Made by a program: the position numbers and the translations under genes
In this document: positions 1,447-34,001 of the stretch, piece after piece
Layout of the letters: every line of letters starts with the position of its first letter
Numbering within the stretch: position 1 is the stretch's first letter
Virus genome (UHGV): UHGV-0041836
DNA length: 41,113 bases
Source: a virus
Reading direction: 5' to 3' (one strand)
Notes under the pieces: model-generated
Database searches by the model: none
The model's input: the letters and a program-made list of their open reading frames with translations, nothing else
What the model was told of the DNA's origin: nothing

Positions 1447-2139
1447 TTATTGCGTGAGCTTCGCATGATAGCTGGAGCATCTCTTGTCATCACTAATTAG
1501 CTCCGCTTTATCCGTTCTTGCCCATATTATATTTCTTTTTATTATTTTTGCTGGATTACCGGCTGCTGCACACATAGATGGCACATCTTTAGTTACAATA
1601 CTCCCATACCCAATGACAGATCCGCTTCCAACAGATACCCCTTTCATTATAGAGACATTTCTCCCTACCCATACGTAACTAGATATAATGATATCTTTTG
1701 CCCAATTAATCCTTTTTTTGCTATGAATATCAAATATAGGATGCCCATCTGATGCACGCAAAATAACATCTCTTGCTATCATGCAGTCATGGCCAATTGT
1801 AACATTGCACTTATCAGTGACGACTTCAAAACCTGCACCTATTGTCGTTCTTCTACCGATAATAACTTTTGAACCTTTTGTTGCGACAATATCACCTTTA
1901 ATCTTACTGTTTTTATGTATTCTTACGTAATTATTATCACCCCTAAATATTACGGTAAGCCATCGACACTCAACATCATCTTCTATAATAAGTTTGTTAT
2001 TGTTTCCATTGAACTGAACTTTATTCTCTTTGCTATTTACAAGATCTCCACATACAAAAATATTACCTGATCCATTATCATCAACGGAAAACGAGTCTTG
2101 AGTCTTGAGTCTTGAGTCTTGAGTCTTGAGTCTTGACAT
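1447..2139 (-). CDS. neuO: hexapeptide-repeat (left-handed beta-helix) O-acetyltransferase, NeuO-like polysialic acid O-acetyltransferase, phase-variable
   Basis: 230-aa ORF beginning MS(RLKTQDS)x2 encoded by heptanucleotide repeats; hexapeptide acetyltransferase-like body (VIIGRRTTIGAGFEVV, VWVGRNVSIMKGVSVGSGSVIGYGSIV); AT-rich codon usage; AGGA RBS 8 nt upstream of ATG. Confidence 0.85.
   Translation of the reverse strand: MSRLKTQDSRLKTQDSFSVDDNGSGNIFVCGDLVNSKENKVQFNGNNNKLIIEDDVECRWLTVIFRGDNNYVRIHKNSKIKGDIVATKGSKVIIGRRTTIGAGFEVVTDKCNVTIGHDCMIARDVILRASDGHPIFDIHSKKRINWAKDIIISSYVWVGRNVSIMKGVSVGSGSVIGYGSIVTKDVPSMCAAAGNPAKIIKRNIIWARTDKAELISDDKRCSSYHAKLTQ
2093..2134 (-). repeat. 6 tandem copies of heptanucleotide AAGACTC (coding strand) at codons 2-15 of neuO; contingency (phase-variation) tract
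   Basis: Plus strand shows GAGTCTT x6 immediately 5' of CAT (ATG on minus strand). 6 copies = 42 nt, so the reading frame is maintained. Confidence 0.95.
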
Positions 2140-2292: not shown

Positions 2293-5241
2293 TTAGTGCT
2301 TCCCTTCTATTAAGTCTAACCTAGCTTTTATTCTTTCTATTTCTCTGCGCTGCCATGCCGCCTCGATATAGAATAAGAGATCAGGTCTGACCCCCCATCT
2401 AGATCCTGCTGGCGTTATTTCAACGCGCTCAATGATGTCTTCCATTACCATCACTGGATTATCATCCTCATCAACAATGATGCTCCCGTCATTATCAGTC
2501 AGCGGCATTTCCCTTTGGCCAGTAATGACGTCATCATATACTGCGGGATAATCGTCATAGCAAAGAAACGCATAGCGGCATGTTGTGCTTTCTTCTTCCA
2601 TGAGTCCGTGAGAAATAAGAACATCACGAAGTTGCTGCGCGATTACACCATGATGTATCCTCGCCCCTTCTTCCCCCTTTATAGCGACAGCGTTCAGCCA
2701 TTTATAAGCGATATACCTGACGTCACCCCAGGCATCCAGCAATGCTTCGTCAGGAGAGACCGGCTCTGTCTTTAATGTTCCGTCACTGGTAACCACAGGA
2801 TTGGAGCCAAGATAAACTGTCGAGAACCTGTTTCCCGGACCACCAAGAGCATTTACATTATCAAGATAAGGTTTAACATCTCCGTTCTCAAAAAGATGTT
2901 CGAGTGCGTTATATACCGCGCGACGTGGAGTACTGCTTCCGGAACCATGCAACGTTATCATTGCACCATCTGCTGAAGACGTTGTTTCACCGCCGCTAAC
3001 GATTAATCTCTGAGCGGTAACATCATCAGACGGTACTTTCTTCGCAATAATGGCGTAATTACCCTCAAGTTTGACTTCCGCGCGAACTTGTCCTGATGTA
3101 CCTGCATGGACAGTCAGTGACTGGACGGCAACATCATCTGTGAAATCAACGGGTACAGGAACCGTCCTCACGCCTGACGTCGACATAAAAGTAGGAAGCG
3201 TTCTGTTAGGAGTGGCTCCGTAGACAAAATCCCTTGAAACAAATTCTTCCTGTTTAATTTTCACCCTGAAACAATACAAATCAGCCGGGTGACCATCGTG
3301 AACATAAGGATATTTTCTGTTGTTATCCCCTATGCTCCATGGGTTTAGAAAGTCTTCCCCACCGAAAATGTAGTACAGCCAGTTGTCTTTGATACAAACT
3401 GAACCAACACCAACCGCAGAGTTAACTATTCCGCCCTGATAAATCTGATCAGTAACATTAACCCACTCTACATTATCCAGACTCCACTCATTGACGTTAA
3501 CTCTGGTCATAAATGTTCTTGGATAGTTTCCTGCATAACGGTTATCAGGTTCTCCTCCTTCCCACTCACCAAATGCGCGCTCACTGCCAAAAATAATCAG
3601 CTCATCGCCAACTTTGGCAAAAGGAAGGTTTGAGTGATGAACATTATTTGGGAAGCGAAGAGAATTCCATGATGTACCTAAATCAGAGCTTCTGTGCAAT
3701 GAACTACCGGGTTGAGTACTTAATGTCCCCCTGGTCGTCAGATACAGAATGCCATCATAATATTTTACACATGGCTCAGATGCATTCGCCTCATATTCTG
3801 CAGGTATGCGTCTGCGAACAAAGCTACCAGGAGAACCGAAAGCATCAGAGAAATAGAGTATCCCAAGCTCGCGTGGACCAATATCACCATTATGGTAGCC
3901 AACAGCAAAACTGTTATCGCTAATCGTCGCAAAACTGTGAATCTCAGTAACAGGAGTGCTTCCGTCAACAAAAGAAGGAATAGTTCCAAGACTGGTTTTT
4001 CTCCATGGTGACGAGTGAAATGATGTACCAAAACTCCAGTATCTACCCTCGTTATTCTGATCCACATCCTGGGTATTTTGCGTCGTAACTGTAAAAGTAT
4101 TTTTATCAATAACAGTAGTCACCGTCATATTCCCGGTAACACCTGTAACACCAGAGTTTGAGAAGTTGACAAAATCACCAGCAAATAATCCGTGATCAGT
4201 AATGCGAATATAAGCGACTTGCTGATTTGCTGCTTTCGTTATACCACCATAAGCGCGAAGGCTGCGACTCATTGGGCGATCCCACAACTCTGCAACCTGC
4301 AGTTTATTTCCGCTCACGGTCCGCGTCTCAATTACAGCAAAAAGGCGATTTCTGACAACCCCCATACTCATGCAGTGATAGTTAACTGTGGGATAGTTTT
4401 CATGTAAATCTGTAAGCCATTCCGGCGTTGTCCAGGTCCTCCCGTCATCTCCTGAGCGAACCCATGCAACATGGAGGTTATTTACACCATGGCGGTCTCC
4501 AGCCATAAAAGGCGCATAGATGACATTGTCATATACAAACGTTTTATCCTGCGTCCAGGCGTTGTACCACGGTGTATCTGTAATTTTAAATAACTCTCCC
4601 TGGATAAAATCTTCAGAAGCATAAAAAAGAGGCTGACCCGGTATTCTCTCAAATAAAAAACGAGCATTTTTAAATCGACTGACATCTGGAAGAGTTGATA
4701 CTTTAAAAGTAAGCCCTCGCCCATCTATCTTTTCACCACCTGTTGCAACAGAAAGTAATTCTGATAGAGCTGATGTATCATCATGAACACCATCACCAAT
4801 AGCCCCCCAACCTCTTACATCATAACTGTCTCTCCATCTTGCTATCTGAAGTTTTGGGTATTTATTCGCTCCATCTGGGTCTTCTAATTGCTGCCGTAAC
4901 TGATCAGGATCATACTTCAGCACATTCGGAAAATAGAACTGCTGCACACCATATGCATCATAAACAGCCATAGAATGGCCCTGTACAGTAACGAATTTGG
5001 CAATCTGTCCGTTATATACCGGATATCCAGCAGCGTTAATGATGATTGGTTGCGAAACAGGAACGTGAGAACCGTCTTCATTCTCCACATAAACCTGAAT
5101 CTGGTTTTCAGGATTTACTGGGTCAGTGTCAATTTTACCGATATAAATCTTTCCATTAGCTACGGCTTTAAAAGAACGAGCCATAGTGAAGAGTTGCGAA
5201 GGCATGCTTACCACAACATTGGCATTTATTGAATCTGTCAT
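2293..5241 (-). CDS. tailspike: P22 gp9-like N-terminal head-binding domain, endo-N-acetylneuraminidase (endosialidase)-like central domain, C-terminal intramolecular-chaperone (peptidase S74-like) domain
   Basis: 982 aa; N-terminus [61 protein letters not shown] closely matches the P22 tailspike N-domain as recalled; Asp-box motifs SGDDGRTW and SSDLGTSW; C-terminal region resembles autoproteolytic chaperone domains of K1 endosialidases / T5 L-shaped fibre (from memory). Confidence 0.85.
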
Positions 5242-6805: not shown

Positions 6806-7054
6806 ATGGCAAAGGGTGTGTCAATTTCTCCAACTACGGTAAGAATCCCTGAATCTTTACGCGAGGCTCTTGCTGTCAGAGCATCAAAAAATGGTCGCTC
6901 TGTTAACTCCGAGATCGTCATGATTTTGCAAGCCGCGATTGATGAAGATAGGTCGCCAAAGTCAGTTGAGTCATTTGCTCAGCAAGAAGCTGACAAATTC
7001 AAAGAGGCGCTGCTTGAGACGCTAAAGACCATGTATGGTAAGGATGAAAAATAA
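6806..7054 (+). CDS. mnt: Mnt-like ribbon-helix-helix repressor
   Basis: 82 aa; RIPESLREALAVRASKNGRSVNSEIVMILQAAI resembles P22 Mnt N-terminal RHH DNA-binding domain. Confidence 0.8.
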   Translation: MAKGVSISPTTVRIPESLREALAVRASKNGRSVNSEIVMILQAAIDEDRSPKSVESFAQQEADKFKEALLETLKTMYGKDEK

Positions 7055-7590
7055 TGCTGCACACAATTCATTTCTTATGCCCCGTTAACACTGCCACTGT
7101 TGGGCAACTTCAGAACCACTGTCTCACCGCATTATCTCAAGGCGCAACTGAATTAAATATCCATATATCAAGTCAGGGAGGGGAAACTGCCGCTGGCTTT
7201 ACTGCGTATAACTTTCTTAAGTCACTCCCTGTTACCGTTAGAACTCACAACATAAGCAATGTTGAATCCATAGCTAATATCGTTTTCCTGGCTGGCTCAG
7301 AACGTTTCGCAAACCCATTATCAAGATTCCTGTTACATCCTCTATTATGGGGCTTTGCCTCCCCAGCCGCCGACCATGCCAGATTGAGAGAGTACGGGAA
7401 ATGCCTCGATAACGATCTTGATCGCTTCGTTGAGACGTTCAATATCGACATCGGAACCCATATTAGGTGGGCATCCCTGATAGCAGACTCGACCATTTTG
7501 GATGCTAACAAGGCTCTTGAGCATGGCATAATTAATTCCATAAAAACTGCAAGGCTGGCATCCAATCAGGCAAACTGGTGGGTTGTTTGA
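7054..7590 (+). CDS. ClpP-fold (S14/S49-like) serine protease homologue, translationally coupled to mnt
   Basis: 178 aa; ELNIHISSQGGETAAGFTAYNFL aligns with ClpP YINSPGGVITAGMSIYDTM; candidate catalytic Ser in NVESIANIVFLAGS (cf. ClpP GQAASMGAFLL) and His in LLHPL (cf. MIHQP). Start ATG overlaps mnt stop (TAATG). By-eye alignment only. Confidence 0.6.
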   Translation: MLHTIHFLCPVNTATVGQLQNHCLTALSQGATELNIHISSQGGETAAGFTAYNFLKSLPVTVRTHNISNVESIANIVFLAGSERFANPLSRFLLHPLLWGFASPAADHARLREYGKCLDNDLDRFVETFNIDIGTHIRWASLIADSTILDANKALEHGIINSIKTARLASNQANWWVV

Positions 7591-7615: not shown

Positions 7616-7644
7616 AAAAAACCCACCTGACGGTGGGTTTTATT
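7616..7644. terminator. bidirectional rho-independent terminator between the convergent ClpP-like and toxin-like genes
   Basis: AAAAAA-CCCACC-TGAC-GGTGGG-TTTTATT: perfect 6-bp stem flanked by A-run and T-run. Confidence 0.6.
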
Positions 7645-8065
7645 AGTGCTTGTATAGCTTGAACTCCCTGTCGAGCCATAAGACATAAAAAGTGGCTCCT
7701 ATCTTATAACCAACCATAGGTGCCTTAGAGCAAAATCTGAACGCAATGAAATCCACATCTTGAGTAACATGCTTAGGAATCGGAGCCTTTATCGCGTTTC
7801 TGGCAATTTTTTCCGTCCCAAGCCCGTGTTTATCAGATTTTCGTATCTCATCCCATGACATCTGACTTAACCTGAACAGCCTATCTGCAAATGCTGCCTT
7901 TTCATGCTTTTGGCAGCAATCTAGGCAATACCCCTTTTGTAGGTATCTAAGAGAAAATACAGGCGGACTTTTGTCTACATCATGAGATTCGTGATGGATA
8001 GAGAGGCCAACAGTAGCAGAGCTCTCTTTATCCCTCTGTTTTATTCTTCCCTTAACTCTAGACAT
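7643..8065 (-). CDS. uncharacterised 140-aa protein, candidate toxin partner of the upstream Panacea-domain protein
   Basis: ORF begins 5 bp downstream of the Panacea-domain ORF on the same strand; Cys-rich (CLDCCQKH); no family recognised by eye; an R-x4-H (RKSDKH) is noted but not diagnostic. Confidence 0.5.
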   Translation of the reverse strand: MSRVKGRIKQRDKESSATVGLSIHHESHDVDKSPPVFSLRYLQKGYCLDCCQKHEKAAFADRLFRLSQMSWDEIRKSDKHGLGTEKIARNAIKAPIPKHVTQDVDFIAFRFCSKAPMVGYKIGATFYVLWLDREFKLYKH

Positions 8066-8070
8066 ACACG

Positions 8071-8520
8071 TCAGTTAATTAACGTTTTGAAAAAACCTTT
8101 CATAGAATCAAGTGTGATTTCTTGGCTAACCGCACCCTCAATGTAAGCATCTTTCCATGGCTGCTCTTCGTGAGTCATATTGCGCAGTTTCCAGGCAGAA
8201 AACTGACCATAAACTTTATACACCTCATCCAGCAATTCAATTTCATCTTCACTGAATTTTTTAGCGTCAAAGTTTTCTGGCGCAGGTAAAGCTCCGTTAC
8301 CACAGTCCCTATATTTACGATACAATTCAGGAACTACTGGCCCATGCATCCAGGCTTCAATTTTCTCATTAAATAGCGGCTTACCCAGAAGAACCAGAGA
8401 AAACCCTTGGGCATAATACGTCAACTTCTGAATTTTTAGGTTAGAGATAATGTCGCCACTTTCTTCATCGCAATGCGCCAAGAAGTAGTCGGCGACATCA
8501 AAACAAGTGAGCATAAACAT
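8071..8520 (-). CDS. Panacea-domain (DUF4065, SocA/GepA-like) protein, candidate antitoxin
   Basis: 149 aa; DVADYFL...ISNLKIQKLTYYAQGFSLVLLGKPLFNEKIEAWMHGPVVPELYRKY matches the DUF4065/Panacea signature (LKLQKLLYYAQGW...GPV.P..Y) as recalled. Confidence 0.7.
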   Translation of the reverse strand: MFMLTCFDVADYFLAHCDEESGDIISNLKIQKLTYYAQGFSLVLLGKPLFNEKIEAWMHGPVVPELYRKYRDCGNGALPAPENFDAKKFSEDEIELLDEVYKVYGQFSAWKLRNMTHEEQPWKDAYIEGAVSQEITLDSMKGFFKTLIN

Positions 8521-8888
8521 ACCTCCATCTTGATAGCCGCAGCTATGTATACAACTGTGTCAAGTTGCATTTAATACCATAACAAAGCTGTCATCAATCC
8601 TTCAGAGGCTAACTTACAACCACTTTCTCGACACGTTTAAATCATTACGTTTCACATTTACTGCATTTTCGCCGAAGTTACCTATAAGGTAATGTCACAT
8701 TTCCTGCAAGTTTCATGCAATGTTGAAAAGTGAGCTATTCACTTTTCTATGACACCAAACACCAAAAATAGCACTTTTTGCTAAATCATTCGTCCAGGTT
8801 GTGGATGGTTTGTCGTTGACACGTTTTCACACACCACTCCACCAATAAAGTATCATCTGGTATCCTGAGCAAAACTAAGGAGGTTGGT

Positions 8889-9278
8889 GTGAGGCAATTT
8901 CTTGCTGCTATGTTCTTATTCATATCTTTTGGGGCTACAGCAGAGTGCTGGGTAGTTGGAGATATGCGCGGAATAAGCTATTCAGAACGAAATAATTTCC
9001 AACCAGAAGAAGATGGTTTTAGTGGAACATTCATCATTAAGACAAGCGGTGAAGATGCCAGCATCACATATTCTGGGGCAGATGCGGGCGGCATGGCTTA
9101 CAAAGCATTGTCTAAAAACTCCATCATAGGAATCGGCGCAAATGGCGAAACTCAACGCGTTATCGACTCATGGGTAATACATCCTACTGGAACAGTTTTA
9201 ATGTCAAAAACCATTTCCGGTTATGGAAATATGGATTCAACCAAAGCTTTTGTTGGAAAAGTAAAAAGAAAATGTTAA
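8889..9278 (+). CDS. small secreted protein (Sec signal peptide, AxA cleavage site), moron of unknown function
   Basis: 129 aa; GTG start with AAGGAGG RBS 6 nt upstream; N-terminal hydrophobic segment FLAAMFLFISFGATA followed by EC; Cys near both ends of the mature protein; opposite strand to the flanking late genes, preceded by a 368-bp AT-rich region. Confidence 0.6.
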   Translation: MRQFLAAMFLFISFGATAECWVVGDMRGISYSERNNFQPEEDGFSGTFIIKTSGEDASITYSGADAGGMAYKALSKNSIIGIGANGETQRVIDSWVIHPTGTVLMSKTISGYGNMDSTKAFVGKVKRKC

Positions 9279-9302
9279 CGATTGAATCCAATTACCCATA
9301 CG

Positions 9303-11132
9303 TTACTGCTGTGTTGCCTCAGTAGCAAACAGCGGTCTGATGGCATTCGCAGCATTATTCAGCGCTCTTTCATAAGCTGGCGTTCCAGCTTTAGTGTTTG
9401 CCAGACGTAAGAGCGCATTCCTTGTTGCTTTGGACTCATACAGGCGCATCATTGTACCGAAACCAGATTCAAGCGCCAGTGTTGCCCCAAGAGTCGCAGT
9501 TGCGCCAATCGTCCTTATCCTGTTGGCTTGCGATTGCCCTGTCTGAGTTACAACATTTGCGATGTCTGACCTTGCTGTTTGCTGTAGAACTTCATGAAGA
9601 GCATCAAGCTCTTTCATGTGTCTCCCACTGAATATCGTGTTATATATCTGACCGTCAGATTGCGACTTCAACTTATTTAACTCGGTAAGAAATTTTGTTG
9701 GCGAGTCTCCTGCCTTTTCTGCAATCTTGCTAATATAAGCAGCACGCATAGCGTTCTTTCCATCTTCACTAAGAGCAGGCCATATCCTCTTAATATCTGA
9801 TGGTTTTCTGCTGAATACAACGCTGTTTATTAGCTCTGGAGTAAACTCTTTTTTAGCTTTGTTGAGATTGTTCGCAATCCTTTTATTGAGAACCTTATTG
9901 AAGACGTTGGAGTAGTCAGAGTTTGCTTTGACGTATCTGGCAGCCTCTCCAGCCCCCAAATACCGTGCTGCGTTATTCCTCAAATCTGAACCCATTGCCC
10001 TCTCCACGGCATCAGTTGCGGCTTTCGCGCTATTAGGAAAAACCATGGCATCTCCCTGAATACTTTCCCTTAATGCTGACCGCAACTCTCTCAATAGTCC
10101 AAAATCTACATCTGGTTTAGCAAGCTCTTCTCGCAAATCGGATAGCCCGCGAATCAAATCCTTATTTGCCACTTTCCCAAGCCTGTTAGCCCTGGTAAGC
10201 ACGTTGTCGATAACCTTAATGGATTTTGATGTGTCAACAGGTGTATCTCCCATTTTAGTTGTAATGTCTTCAATAACGCTTCCAGCTGAATCCTTCCTTG
10301 ACTTCAGAGAACCATACAGATCGTCAACAACAACTGATGGGCTATATTCACCATATTTCTCAAGCTGTTTTTTAACTAGCTGACTTCTTTTTGCATATTG
10401 CTCCGCACGCTTTGAACCTGTCCCGAGCAAAGCCCCCTCGGCATCCTGAGTAAGGCCGCGAGTGAAAGCATTTTTCGGCGGGATAACATCAGATGTCATT
10501 GGTGTCACGCCCATCGATTCTGATGTGGCAATTTTCTTCGCCACTTCTGGCGCAATATCACCTTTTATAGCCGTTATTCCACGCCCTATTCCCTTTGCTG
10601 CTGCGGAAAGAACCCCCTGAGCGGCAAGGTTAACTCCGGCATTTTTTGCTGCATTTTGTGCGAAATCGCCTTTCTGATTTGCGGCCTCTGCCAGTGATCC
10701 AATAGCCATGCTTCCTGCCGTTCCAACTCCTGGAACTAAATACCCGCCAATTGTTTCTCCAGTTTGCGCATAAGGGTCTGTCGGTCGATCGACTGGACGA
10801 TAGACATCATCCAATACTTTTGGACCACCAAGCCCCTGACTGATTGCATTAATCAGACTTGCGCCACCCTGCAATACGTCAAATGGTATGTTTACCAGAC
10901 CACGACCAGCCTGTTCTGCAATTTGCCCTGCACTTTGACCACCTGTGAGCCAATCGCCAGCTTGTTGCATCAATGATGGTTCTTCCCGTGTTGGTGCATT
11001 ATTGGCCTGATTAACTGTTTGTTGCTGAACAGCCTGACCAGCAAAATACTCATCAATGGCGGCCCCAATATCTTCGGTGCTCGTACCATCAGGAAAGGTA
11101 AATGTCTTACCGTTTGCAGTTACTTTCATCAT
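9303..11132 (-). CDS. ejection/internal virion protein, P22 gp16-like
   Basis: 609 aa (same length as P22 gp16 as recalled); position after gp20-like gene in conserved P22 order. Confidence 0.8.
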
Positions 11133-33003: not shown

Positions 33004-33690
33004 ATGGATAAATACGAACAAAGACGACTAAGGCTGATAGAGATAAGAGACCGATTCTGTAATGGAAAGGCCTCAGAGTTGGCTCGTCGAATAGAAAGGG
33101 AACCATCATACGTTTCCAGAATGCTGTATCCGGAAGGAAAAAGCGGAAAAAAACGCATTGCTGACGATATGATGGAACTAATTGAAAAATCTTTTAATCT
33201 CCCACGCGGATGGATGGACATGCTTGCAGATGGTAAAGCTGGAGCTACAGACCATCTTGAGTTTGCGGGTAACGTTCGTGCGGGTTTTGTTCCGGTAATT
33301 GGTGAAGCCGTTTTGGGAGTTGATGGCTCAGTGGATATGATTGAATTCAGATCCGGTTGGTTAAGCATCTACAGCGGCGATAAAGATGCTTACGGTCTGA
33401 AGGTTAAGGGTGACAGCATGTGGCCAAGGATTCAGTCAGGAGAATATGTTGTTATTGAACCAAATACGCCAGTACATCCAGGTGATGAAGTCTTTGTAAG
33501 GACCAAAGACGGTCACAACATGATAAAGATCATGAACAAAACAAGAGACGGTGATTATCAGTTTAGTAGCATAAACAGTGATCACCGCCCAATCACTCTT
33601 CCTGTTGAAGAAGTTGATAAAATGCATTTTGTTTCAGCTATTGTGAAACACACCAGGTACGTAGACCAGGACGATCTGCCAAAAGTTTGA
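33004..33690 (+). CDS. cI: CI-type repressor with C-terminal S24 (LexA-like) autopeptidase domain
   Basis: 228 aa; N-terminal HTH region; C-terminal GDSMWP...KIM Ser-Lys dyad context typical of S24 peptidases; divergent from cro. Confidence 0.9.
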   Translation: MDKYEQRRLRLIEIRDRFCNGKASELARRIEREPSYVSRMLYPEGKSGKKRIADDMMELIEKSFNLPRGWMDMLADGKAGATDHLEFAGNVRAGFVPVIGEAVLGVDGSVDMIEFRSGWLSIYSGDKDAYGLKVKGDSMWPRIQSGEYVVIEPNTPVHPGDEVFVRTKDGHNMIKIMNKTRDGDYQFSSINSDHRPITLPVEEVDKMHFVSAIVKHTRYVDQDDLPKV

Positions 33691-34001
33691 GGATAAAGCA
33701 GCAAGTGTTTATACCCGGCATAGTAGTCGCTGTTGTAATCATCTGCTTCATATGGGCAAAGTTATCTCCTGTAAGCTCTAAGCATACAGCTGAACTCATG
33801 AAGAAGAAGCATCTTATACATGAGGCAGAATCGATAATTAAAAAGTTCAAAGGCATGTCATACGACGACATGTCATCAGAGCAGATTGCTATGTATAAAT
33901 GCGCCATTGAGCGTCTTGACTACTTAAACGGACTCAAACCCAAACACACCCCAGTAGAATCAAAATTGCCGCAATGGCCAAGCAATCCAAATAGCTTCTG
34001 A
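33687..34001 (+). CDS. small N-terminally membrane-anchored protein in the rex position (downstream of cI); non-ATG start
   Basis: 104-aa track ORF starts at TTG 33687 (alternative GTG 33705); hydrophobic segment IPGIVVAVVIICFIWAKL; AT-rich codon usage; followed by a strong terminator. Confidence 0.4.
   Translation: MRIKQQVFIPGIVVAVVIICFIWAKLSPVSSKHTAELMKKKHLIHEAESIIKKFKGMSYDDMSSEQIAMYKCAIERLDYLNGLKPKHTPVESKLPQWPSNPNSF

What the first reader, a model, noticed from the sequence alone, without database searches (positions are those of the whole stretch)
8889..9278. Divergently oriented small secreted protein with its own upstream region inside the late operon
Seen: a 129-aa ORF with a Sec signal peptide (cleavage likely after ATA), strong AAGGAGG RBS and GTG start, on the opposite strand to the surrounding late genes and preceded by 368 bp of AT-rich non-coding DNA. 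This is the classic moron layout for an autonomously expressed lysogenic-conversion gene. Function is unknown; the mature protein has Cys near both ends.
Basis: partly seen in the sequence, partly recalled or inferred. Interest (0 to 1): 0.55.

Follow-up and report, generated by a model that had tools for sequence, protein, structure and literature searches.

The report
Secreted Hex-like gene in sieA slot
This small gene of a P22-like E. coli prophage sits exactly where phage P22 keeps its superinfection-exclusion gene sieA and encodes a secreted relative of the phage 434 Hex protein, so it is most likely another envelope-acting defence against incoming phages.

Summary
ORF 8889-9278 (+) encodes 129 aa, with AAGGAGG 5 nt before a GTG start, a Sec-type signal peptide (cleavage ATA|ECW) and Cys at both ends of the mature part. 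It was intact in 80 of 80 related loci, and dN/dS is about 0.1.

The window is a CUS-3-like, P22-like prophage. The ORF lies convergent with ejection-protein gene 16 across a 24-bp gap, exactly where P22 carries sieA. A 34-nt leader, including the Shine-Dalgarno sequence and GTG, is the same as that of P22 sieA.

In IMG/VR this leader precedes at least 12 unrelated cargo families. Eleven of them have an N-terminal signal or transmembrane segment.

The protein has no Pfam family. It belongs to PHROG 2651 together with phage 434 Hex ("heterologous exclusion", reported to exclude P22) and Sf6 gp38. About 120 family clusters share the AxA-x-Cys signal-cleavage design and a C-terminal Cys. AlphaFold gives a small beta-barrel (pLDDT 86) that resembles no specific solved family.

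Best reading: a prophage-expressed, periplasmic, disulfide-bonded beta-barrel that acts in phage exclusion. Expression, export and function were not tested here. The moron interpretation is supported and sharpened. The 368-bp upstream region is mostly shared with the neighbouring toxin-antitoxin module.

The parts
8826..8856 (+). Promoter-like element TTCACA-N19-TATCAT, the positional counterpart of P22 PsieA (inferred).
   Evidence: P22's annotated PsieA is TTGGTA-N19-TTTCAT and ends 31 nt before the sieA GTG. In alignment A3 the window's TATCAT aligns with P22's -10 hexamer and ends 33 nt before GTG 8889. The consensus scan found nothing because it allows only 16-18 nt spacers. This is my own reading and has not been tested.
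8858..8891 (+). Conserved leader TGGTATCCTGnnCAAAACTAAGGAGGTTGGTGTG (5' UTR, Shine-Dalgarno sequence, GTG start), shared by all cargo genes of the slot.
   Evidence: Identical, apart from the two nn positions, in the window, Emek, E212, EC.P3, phiv205-1, ST-35 and P22 sieA. It occurs once in the window, with 0 matches expected by chance. Homology with E212 and EC.P3 ends at 8898, with phiv205-1 at 8892, and homology with ST-35 begins at 8858.
8877..8883 (+). Shine-Dalgarno sequence AAGGAGG, 5 nt before the start codon.
   Evidence: Read directly from the sequence.
8889..9278 (+). Hex-family gene (129 codons plus stop), PHROG 2651.
   Evidence: ORF listing. phrog_2651 E=2.4e-60. Intact in 80 of 80 relatives. 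dN/dS about 0.1. Homology to 434 Hex: 27% identity over the full length and 61.7 bits against a profile built without Hex. Hex itself matches phrog_2651 at 1.4e-58.
8889..8942 (+). Predicted Sec signal peptide, residues 1-18, with SPase I cleavage at ATA|ECW.
   Evidence: The basic start, hydrophobic core and cleavage motif are read from the sequence. Across 110 family members, the residue two before the Cys is A/S/G/T in 102 and the residue four before it is A/S/V/T/L in 98; the Cys is invariant. This part of the sequence diverges while staying hydrophobic. Twelve of 80 alleles carry a different signal peptide joined to the same mature part. There is no lipobox: E precedes the Cys. SignalP was not available.
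8943..9275 (+). Mature 111-aa domain: a small all-beta barrel with Cys20 and Cys129 placed to form a disulfide between the first and last strands.
9279..9302 (.). 24-bp gap between the ORF stop and the stop of convergent gene 16.
   Evidence: The spacing is the same in 73 of 80 IMG/VR loci. P22 sieA and gene 16 are 22 bp apart. No intrinsic terminator lies in the gap.
9303..11132 (-). Gene 16 homologue (609-aa ejection or DNA-transfer protein). It is a context gene and the known target class of SieA.
   Evidence: phrog_770 'DNA transfer protein' E=4e-259. Its neighbours are Inj_translocase (gene 20) and P22_gp7. SieA escape mutations map to gp16 and gp20 (PMC10883804).
8521..8825 (.). Intergenic DNA that travels with the divergent Panacea module, not with the ORF.
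   Evidence: E212, EC.P3 and phiv205-1 share window 8133-8898 with other cargo in the slot. ST-35 has the ORF with a different upstream region. Among the 80 loci, upstream neighbours vary while the ORF-to-gene 16 junction is constant.

Best explanation
This is a cargo gene (moron) in the sieA slot of a P22-like prophage. It is probably transcribed in the lysogen from a weak promoter that corresponds to P22 PsieA, running antisense to the late operon, and translated from the slot's shared strong Shine-Dalgarno/GTG leader.

The 129-aa precursor would be exported by Sec and cut after ATA. The 111-aa mature protein would fold in the periplasm into a small beta-barrel closed by a Cys20-Cys129 disulfide.

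It is a member of the Hex family (PHROG 2651: phage 434 Hex, Sf6 gp38). Its most likely role is protecting the lysogen from superinfecting phages at an envelope step. The most plausible step is interference with passage of the P22-type ejection-protein conduit through the periplasm or peptidoglycan.

Shown here: the gene's reality and constraint, slot identity with sieA, homology to Hex, and the family-wide export signature.
Inferred: promoter use, export, the disulfide, the exclusion function and its target.
For: Slot:
- P22 sieA lies convergent with gene 16 across a 22-bp gap; here the gap is 24 bp. The 34-nt leader up to the GTG is the same in both. ST-35 has the P22 PsieA sequence directly in front of this ORF.
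- All 80 IMG/VR relatives lie between gene 16 and the tailspike gene.
- A 25%-identical family member (P0143) occupies the same slot in another P22-like prophage.

Slot theme:
- The exact leader precedes 12 unrelated cargo families, one of which is SieA. Eleven of the 12 have an N-terminal signal or transmembrane segment.

Family:
- The window ORF and phage 434 Hex both match phrog_2651, and the pairwise and profile homology covers the full length.
- Hex means 'heterologous exclusion': a lambda imm434 prophage excludes P22 in Salmonella and a hex- prophage does not (PMC3564112, citing Susskind and Botstein).
- Hex-type members lie directly after the cI repressor gene, on the transcript made in lysogens, in 434, Sf6, HK446, HK633 and Sf101. 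A Vibrio prophage member lies downstream of an S24 repressor.

Export:
- The AxA-x-Cys cleavage design and the terminal Cys pair are conserved across about 110 members.
- Half of the members have a second Cys pair.
- The published sHex fragment begins at E43, which is exactly the predicted cleavage site. [quoted passage not shown]

Reality of the gene: 80 of 80 copies intact and dN/dS about 0.1.
Against: - No experiment on this protein exists, and no transcription data were available.
- The promoter-like element has a 19-nt spacer and was missed by the consensus scan.
- The only biochemical study of Hex assigns it a cytoplasmic role, blocking RecA-stimulated repressor cleavage (PMC3564112).
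- The step at which Hex excludes P22 is not given in the papers I could read.
- Structure searches give only generic barrels, so no mechanism follows from the fold.
- There is no PADLOC, Pfam or NCBIfam hit.
- Shared location and envelope targeting are guilt by association. Only one of the 12 cargo families, SieA, has a known function.
Confidence: 0.55

Rival explanations
1. A lysogenic-conversion factor unrelated to phage defence. The secreted barrel would bind a small ligand or a host envelope component and change host fitness or virulence, for example stress tolerance, serum resistance or adhesion in K1/UPEC strains.
For: The fold resembles calycin, FABP and avidin-like ligand-binding barrels and Neisseria surface-protein barrels. 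The prophage is a K1-capsule-specific CUS-3-like element that also carries another conversion gene, a hexapeptide acetyltransferase. The best E. coli genome matches listed come from human isolates.
Against: All structural matches are weak: no Foldseek E-value at or below 0.001, TM-scores at or below 0.49. The family is found in prophage slots for lysogen-expressed genes across P22-like, lambdoid and Vibrio P2/186-like phages of many hosts, which fits a phage-directed role better than a host-specific virulence trait. The one family member with a phenotype, Hex, excludes a phage.
Confidence: 0.25
2. It works as published for Hex: a cytoplasmic 'repressor protection' protein that blocks RecA-stimulated autocleavage of the prophage repressor and so stabilises lysogeny.
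For: PMC3564112 reports 30-fold higher spontaneous induction for a hex-replacement prophage, dependent on recA. It also reports that a refolded 61-residue sHex fragment inhibits cleavage of the 434 and P22 repressors in vitro. The window encodes an S24-type repressor at 33004-33690.
Against: - Every family member has an N-terminal signal sequence with a conserved SPase I motif, and the Cys residues come in even numbers. This is hard to reconcile with a cytoplasmic site of action.
- The paper never considered export: the words 'signal', 'periplasm' and 'membrane' occur 0 times in it.
- The paper used a 158-aa ORF with a 24-aa N-terminal extension. sHex is the first half of the predicted barrel.
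- In this window the gene is not linked to the repressor gene and occurs with varied surroundings.
Confidence: 0.07
3. An outer-membrane beta-barrel of the Lom/Ail/OmpX/PagC type, inserted in the outer membrane.
Against: - The mature chain is only 111 aa and most of its strands are 4-9 residues long.
- The C-terminus is KVKRKC, not an aromatic beta-signal.
- The last strand has charged residues on both faces.
- 22% of residues are charged and GRAVY is -0.29.
- The terminal disulfide is conserved.
- No outer-membrane barrel Pfam family matched any of 110 members.
Confidence: 0.04
4. A lytic-cycle or virion component, or a decaying non-functional ORF.
For: It lies among the virion genes. A truncated allele is frequent in one degraded prophage remnant.
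Against: It is on the strand opposite the late operon and carries a signal peptide. It is replaceable by unrelated genes in functional phages (E212, EC.P3, P22). It is intact in 80 of 80 loci with dN/dS about 0.1.
Confidence: 0.03

Closest known systems
Phage 434 Hex ('heterologous exclusion'; annotated 'repressor protection protein') and Sf6 gene 38 protein, PHROG 2651
   Same: Homologous over the full length: 27% identity, 61.7 bits against a profile built without Hex, and the same PHROG. The design is the same: an ~18-residue signal peptide, A-x-[AS]|E-C-W at the mature N-terminus, FVG-x-V-x-x-x-C at the C-terminus, ~130 aa in total. Both lie in a prophage slot for lysogen-expressed accessory genes.
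   Different: Hex and gp38 follow the cI repressor gene on the PRM transcript. This gene is in the sieA slot next to gene 16. Only 27% identical. The published Hex mechanism is cytoplasmic and does not fit the export signature found here.
Phage P22 SieA (superinfection exclusion A)
   Same: Same genomic slot, orientation and distance to gene 16, and the same 34-nt leader and GTG start. Both products are targeted to the envelope.
   Different: No sequence similarity. SieA is a 162-164-aa inner-membrane protein with 3-4 transmembrane helices and no cleaved signal (PMC10883804). This protein is a cleaved, soluble-looking beta-barrel, so it would have to act from the periplasmic side.
Other prophage-encoded secreted or lipoprotein exclusion factors (T5 Llp, phi80/N15 Cor, TP-J34 Ltp, HK97 gp15). 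These are named from general knowledge and from the reference list of PMC10883804.
   Same: Small, envelope-located, prophage- or early-expressed proteins that block entry of incoming phage DNA. They are moron-like genes.
   Different: No sequence relationship was detected (no PADLOC, Pfam or PDB hit). Most of them are lipoproteins or membrane proteins, whereas this protein has no lipobox. The resemblance is functional only and was not tested.
MliC/PliC/PhiA periplasmic peptidoglycan-hydrolase inhibitors
   Different: PhiA ranks 36th among generic barrels. No MliC Pfam match was found in any of 110 family members. It is kept only as one possible mechanism.

Membership tests
Hex family (PHROG 2651; 434 Hex, Sf6 gp38) | Full-length sequence homology to Hex/gp38. 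| tested here: met
   phrog_2651 at E=2.4e-60 for the ORF and 1.4e-58 for Hex. BLASTP gives 27% identity over residues 1-129. A profile built without Hex scores Hex at 61.7 bits. A Hex-like cluster, P0048, has E=2.6e-13 against 1.84 billion proteins.
Hex family (PHROG 2651; 434 Hex, Sf6 gp38) | Gene lies immediately downstream of the cI repressor gene on the PRM transcript. | tested here: not met
   Here the gene lies between gene 16 and the immI region. The repressor gene is at 33004-33690, and the ORF that follows it (33687-34001) is unrelated.
Hex family (PHROG 2651; 434 Hex, Sf6 gp38) | Excludes a heterologous phage (P22) when expressed from a prophage. | not testable with these tools
   The phenotype is known only from the literature (PMC3564112, citing Susskind and Botstein).
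Hex family (PHROG 2651; 434 Hex, Sf6 gp38) | Inhibits RecA-stimulated repressor autocleavage. | not testable with these tools
   This is a biochemical claim of PMC3564112. The export signature makes it doubtful.
SieA (P22 superinfection exclusion A) | Sequence homology to SieA types A, B or C, including the FxRYPxEAxxFNK motif. | tested here: not met
   BLASTP against P22 SieA gives E=2.2. The two fall in separate clusters in the cargo analysis.
SieA (P22 superinfection exclusion A) | Polytopic inner-membrane protein with 3-4 transmembrane helices. | tested here: not met
   There is only one N-terminal hydrophobic segment, followed by an all-beta domain.
SieA (P22 superinfection exclusion A) | Location between genes 16 and 9, on the strand opposite the late genes, behind the PsieA leader. 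| tested here: met
Moron (an extra gene that some related phages carry and others lack, with its own promoter and terminator) | Present in some close relatives and absent or replaced in others, with a different base composition. | tested here: met
   E212, EC.P3, phiv205-1 and P22 carry other genes at the same site. GC is 40.8% against 46.8% for the window.
Moron (an extra gene that some related phages carry and others lack, with its own promoter and terminator) | Own promoter and terminator. | tested here: inconclusive
   TTCACA-N19-TATCAT sits at the position of P22's annotated PsieA, but the consensus scan found no promoter. No terminator lies in the 24-bp gap. A stem-loop followed by T-rich sequence lies at 9374-9391 inside gene 16.
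Sec/SPase I-exported periplasmic protein | Signal peptide with a basic start, hydrophobic core and cleavage region obeying the -3/-1 rule, and no lipobox. | tested here: met
   MR / QFLAAMFLFISFG / ATA|E. Family-wide, the -1 position is A/S/G/T in 102 of 110 and the -3 position is A/S/V/T/L in 98 of 110. E precedes the Cys, so there is no lipobox. SignalP was not available and cleavage was not shown experimentally.
Outer-membrane 8-stranded barrels (OmpX/Ail/Lom/PagC) | Pfam outer-membrane barrel match, C-terminal aromatic beta-signal, membrane-spanning strand lengths. | tested here: not met
   No Pfam hit. The C-terminus is KRKC. The strands are short and the surface is charged.
MliC/PliC lysozyme inhibitors | Pfam MliC match, or a specific structural match. 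| tested here: not met

The most novel reading that the evidence does not exclude
The sieA position of P22-like phages is a cassette site. An invariant ~34-nt leader serves both as translation start and as a recombination joint, and behind it phages swap at least 12 unrelated envelope-targeted proteins. This would be a diversified arsenal against the hypervariable ejection proteins encoded next door.

Within that arsenal the Hex family would be a widespread, uncurated class of periplasmic disulfide-bonded beta-barrels that block phage entry from the periplasmic side. If so, the published cytoplasmic 'repressor protection' role of 434 Hex would be a secondary effect or an artefact.
Probability: 0.35. 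Interest if true: 0.7.

Novelty: new member of a known kind. Interest (0 to 1): 0.45.

Why it matters
SieA is the only characterised product of this locus, and two thirds of sequenced P22-like phages lack it (PMC10883804). Those phages instead carry other envelope proteins behind the same leader. One of these is a Hex homologue found in about 3% of complete E. coli genomes. This gives a ready set of candidate entry-blocking proteins and a simple way to find more.

It also offers a testable reason to revisit where 434 Hex acts, because every family member looks exported. Hex homologues sit in lysogen-expressed slots of lambdoid, P22-like and Vibrio prophages.

The practical consequences are modest. 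They concern prediction of phage resistance in K1/UPEC lysogens and better annotation: RefSeq starts the gene seven codons too late, which cuts off the start of the signal peptide.

Tried and rejected
- Pfam, NCBIfam and PADLOC gave nothing for the ORF. Pfam gave nothing meaningful for 110 family members.
- PDB sequence searches with the single protein and with a profile gave nothing below E=0.39.
- The consensus promoter scan found no sigma-70 site in 8400-9450. Rfam found nothing in 8300-9500.
The genome-contig scan with A5 found no relatives.
- The word-indexed profile search added few distant members.
- A literature search for further work on hex found only PMC3564112. The SieA paper does not mention alternative genes at the locus.
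- A regex search for the gene 16 stop worked for only some gene 16 types.

Considered and rejected:
- A lipoprotein, because there is no lipobox.
- An outer-membrane barrel, because of size, charge and C-terminus.
- A second Hex-like copy after cI in the window; none was found.

Full report
**Observation.** The ORF at 8889-9278 (+) is present exactly as described. It has 129 codons and a GTG start, with AAGGAGG at 8877-8883 five bases upstream. The flanking virion genes are on the minus strand. The 609-aa protein at 9303-11132 matches the PHROG 'DNA transfer protein' (P22 gene 16 type). The 471-aa and 229-aa proteins beyond it match Pfam Inj_translocase (gene 20) and P22_gp7.

The stretch 8521-8888 is 368 bp without a sizeable ORF and has 39.1% GC. 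The ORF has 40.8% GC and the window 46.8%.

Residues 1-18 (MRQFLAAMFLFISFGATA) form a typical Sec signal: a basic start, a 13-residue hydrophobic core, and A-T-A before the predicted cleavage site. The mature chain starts E-C-W and ends with Cys129.

**The gene is real.** In 80 related IMG/VR loci (88-99% identical at the protein level) the reading frame is intact at exactly 129 codons in all 80. Pairwise dN/dS for the mature part has a median of 0.115. The gene is in 147 of 5,426 complete E. coli genomes, always chromosomal.

RefSeq starts it at the ATG of codon 8. The GTG is better supported for three reasons:
- it has the strong Shine-Dalgarno sequence;
- the same Shine-Dalgarno/GTG leader starts P22 sieA and many other genes (see below);
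- position 2-3 is K or R in all alleles.

**What the window is.** It holds a tyrosine integrase (14-1207), a hexapeptide acetyltransferase (1447-2139, minus strand), a 982-aa endosialidase tailspike with a P22 head-binding domain (2293-5241, minus strand), Ant, Arc/Mnt-type regulators, an S24 repressor, CII and N. This is a complete P22-like (Lederbergvirus-type) prophage of the K1-specific CUS-3 kind. The ORF sequence is 100% identical to that of E. coli PA45B and other human isolates.

**The slot.** In P22 itself, gene 16 is followed by sieA on the opposite strand, 22 bp away, with an annotated promoter PsieA 31 nt upstream of the sieA GTG. The window ORF has the same orientation and a 24-bp gap to gene 16.

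I aligned the start regions of the window, Emek, E212, EC.P3, phiv205-1, ST-35 and P22 sieA. A 34-nt leader, TGGTATCCTGnnCAAAACTAAGGAGGTTGGTGTG (window 8858-8891), is the same in all seven apart from the two nn positions, although the coding sequences after it differ. Homology breakpoints fall at the leader:
- E212 and EC.P3 match the window up to 8898;
- phiv205-1 matches up to 8892;
- ST-35 matches from 8858 onward.

ST-35 has P22's upstream sequence, including PsieA, joined to this ORF. The ORF is therefore an in-place replacement of sieA.

P22's annotated PsieA reads TTGGTA-N19-TTTCAT. The window has TTCACA-N19-TATCAT at 8826-8856, with its -10 hexamer aligned to P22's. That is my reading. 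The consensus scan allows only 16-18 nt spacers and reported no promoter.

Most of the 368-bp 'own upstream region' travels with the divergent Panacea (SocA-like) antitoxin gene and its 140-aa partner at 7643-8520, not with the ORF. Across the 80 IMG/VR loci the upstream neighbours vary widely. The junction with gene 16 is constant in 73 of them.

**The slot holds envelope proteins.** I scanned IMG/VR for the exact 22-nt end of the leader. The scan returned 120 stretches, which is its cap. The 118 complete ORFs behind the leader fall into 12 unrelated families:

| Cargo family | Loci |
|---|---|
| 109 aa, N-terminal hydrophobic segment plus coiled coil | 27 |
| This Hex-like protein, 129 aa | 24 |
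| 62 aa, two transmembrane segments | 12 |
| 75 aa, two transmembrane segments | 9 |
| SieA, 164 aa | 9 |
| A second 109-aa protein with an N-terminal transmembrane segment | 8 |
| 106 aa, N-terminal transmembrane segment | 6 |
| 116 aa, three transmembrane segments | 6 |
| 99 aa, signal peptide | 5 |
| 149 aa, N-terminal membrane anchor | 5 |
| 140 aa, no hydrophobic segment | 5 |
| 68 aa, signal or transmembrane segment | 2 |

Eleven of the 12 families carry an N-terminal signal or membrane segment. Of the nine I scanned against PHROGs, six match families of unknown function and three match none. Two loci carry two cassettes in tandem, each with its own copy of the leader.

SieA is the only characterised member. 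[quoted passage not shown] Only 22 of 66 sequenced P22-like phages have it (PMC10883804). That paper does not mention alternative genes at the site.

**The protein family.** The ORF has no Pfam, NCBIfam, PADLOC or PDB sequence match. It matches phrog_2651 (unknown function) at 2.4e-60.

A translated search of phage genomes found full-length, ~27%-identical matches in 434, lambda imm434, Sf6 (gene 38), HK446, HK633, Sf101, Huey and Chlobot. In nearly all of these the match lies immediately after the cI repressor gene. In phage 434 this gene is annotated 'repressor protection protein', which is Hex. Three results support the homology:
- Hex matches the same PHROG at 1.4e-58;
- a profile of the close family alone scores Hex at 61.7 bits over the whole length;
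- a search of 1.84 billion representative proteins returned 124 clusters, 121 of them single-domain proteins (most 120-150 aa), including Hex-like ones.

All 110 aligned members share one design:
- an N-terminal hydrophobic leader;
- a small residue at -1 (102 of 110) and at -3 (98 of 110) relative to a cleavage site one residue before an invariant Cys;
- a Cys at or within a few residues of the C-terminus (109 of 110);
- in about half the members, a second Cys pair ten residues apart.

These features point to exported, disulfide-bonded proteins.

Family members turn up repeatedly in prophage positions used for lysogen-expressed genes:
- a 25%-identical member sits in the gene 16/tailspike slot of another P22-like prophage;
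- a Rahnella member sits next to a head-binding-domain tail gene and an integrase fragment;
- a Vibrio chagasii member lies about 480 bp downstream of an S24 repressor, on the same strand, in a prophage with a CP76-type CII and an integrase.

An outer-membrane barrel is unlikely. The mature chain is only 111 aa, most strands are short, 22% of residues are charged, the C-terminus is KVKRKC rather than aromatic, and the terminal Cys pair is conserved. The first and last strands should be neighbours in a closed barrel, which would place Cys20 next to Cys129. I could not measure the distance in the model.

**What is known about Hex.** According to PMC3564112, Hex stands for heterologous exclusion. 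Salmonella carrying a lambda imm434 prophage excludes P22, and a hex- prophage does not. The gene is on the PRM transcript together with cI.

The same paper proposes that Hex stabilises lysogeny by blocking RecA-stimulated repressor cleavage. The evidence is a cat-replacement mutant and a refolded 61-residue fragment called sHex. The authors worked from a 158-aa ORF that starts 24 codons upstream, inside cI.

Translating that ORF shows that sHex's first residue, E43, is the residue directly after the predicted cleavage site ANS|E. Over-production of the full-length protein killed the cells. The paper nowhere mentions a signal sequence or the periplasm. These points fit an exported protein, but they do not prove export.

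**Explanation and alternatives.**
- Most likely (about 0.55): a prophage-expressed periplasmic barrel that defends the lysogen against incoming phages at an envelope step. It would be the periplasmic counterpart of the inner-membrane protein SieA whose place it takes.
- About 0.25: a secreted conversion factor with a host-directed role.
- About 0.07: the published cytoplasmic Hex role.
- About 0.04: an outer-membrane barrel.
- About 0.03: a virion or lytic-cycle function, or a decaying gene.

Shown: the anatomy, the constraint on the sequence, slot identity with sieA, the cassette repertoire, homology to Hex, and the family-wide export signature. Inferred: promoter activity, export, the disulfide, the exclusion function and its target.

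**Novelty and score.** The gene is already in databases as a hypothetical protein (Emek orf129; RefSeq WP_001331792). Morons, sieA and Hex are all known. New in the sense that I found them in none of the papers searched:
- the exact equivalence with the sieA slot;
- the shared leader with its dozen envelope-targeted cargo families;
- the recognition that the Hex family looks exported.

I rate it a new member of a known kind, interest 0.45.

Noticed in passing
window 7643-8520 (-): A two-gene module. A Panacea/SocA-like antitoxin (149 aa, PF13274, E=2e-24) comes first, followed by a 140-aa partner (phrog_8366) with weak similarity to PADLOC NsnC and NCBIfam MAG6450. This is a probable toxin-antitoxin or defence module inside the immI region. 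RefSeq annotation of strain PA45B omits the 140-aa gene.
   Followed up: partly
window 6806-7590 (+): An Arc/Mnt-like ribbon-helix-helix gene (82 aa) is directly followed by a ClpP-like serine protease gene (178 aa, PF00574, E=5e-12) with overlapping stop and start codons. This is an unusual partner for Mnt in an immI region. The same pair occurs in EC.P3, phiv205-1 and several IMG/VR loci.
   Followed up: no
window 8652-8665 and 8695-8708: Direct repeat TCACATTT(A/C)CTGCA, two copies 43 bp apart, in the intergenic DNA upstream of the Panacea gene. It could be an operator pair for that module.
   Followed up: no
window 9222-9240 / 9282-9300 and 9374-9391: A 19-nt inverted repeat (79% complementary) bridges the ORF's 3' end and the gap before gene 16. 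A 7-bp stem-loop followed by T-rich sequence lies on the plus strand inside the conserved 3' end of gene 16. Either could end the slot's transcript.
   Followed up: no
window 33687-34001 (+): A 104-aa ORF with a TTG start overlaps the stop of the S24 repressor gene (33004-33690) by 4 nt. This is the position that Hex holds in phage 434 and rexA holds in lambda. It has no Pfam match and is not a Hex homologue.
   Followed up: partly
window 1447-2139 (-) and 2293-5241 (-): A hexapeptide-repeat acetyltransferase lies next to an endosialidase tailspike that has a P22 head-binding domain. This is the hallmark pair of the K1-capsule phage CUS-3 (neuO-like conversion gene). The match to CUS-3 is from my own knowledge.
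   Followed up: partly
L082-L093 (IMG/VR), ORF start region: Twelve alleles have a different 5' UTR, an ATG start and an unrelated signal peptide (MKLIIAMAFLVFSFSVSA) joined to the same mature sequence at ECW. The recombination joint therefore falls at the boundary between signal peptide and mature protein.
   Followed up: partly
L220 3001-3405 (E. coli GCA_026738035.1): A cluster of 642 member sequences (P0012) is a truncated allele that loses the last ~17 codons. It sits at the edge of a degraded prophage remnant (tailspike, mnt, ...), directly next to host genes for a GntP-family permease and a PALP-domain enzyme.
   Followed up: partly
L020 3501 and 5266; L034 3501 and 4365: Two IMG/VR prophages carry two cassettes in the slot, each with its own copy of the leader. 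The Hex-like gene is followed by a 149-aa membrane-anchored protein in one and a 140-aa protein in the other.
   Followed up: partly
L005 (phage ST-35) about 3400-3430: In the ST-35 record the ORF's last codons read ...FVGKVKENVSD instead of ...FVGKVKRKC. This is a frameshift in the A-run near the stop and is possibly a sequencing error.
   Followed up: no
L006 2429-2905 (phage 434): The N-terminus of the sHex fragment reported in PMC3564112 (E43 of their 158-aa ORF) coincides with the predicted signal-peptidase site of the 134-aa Hex. Their 158-aa ORF starts inside cI.
   Followed up: yes
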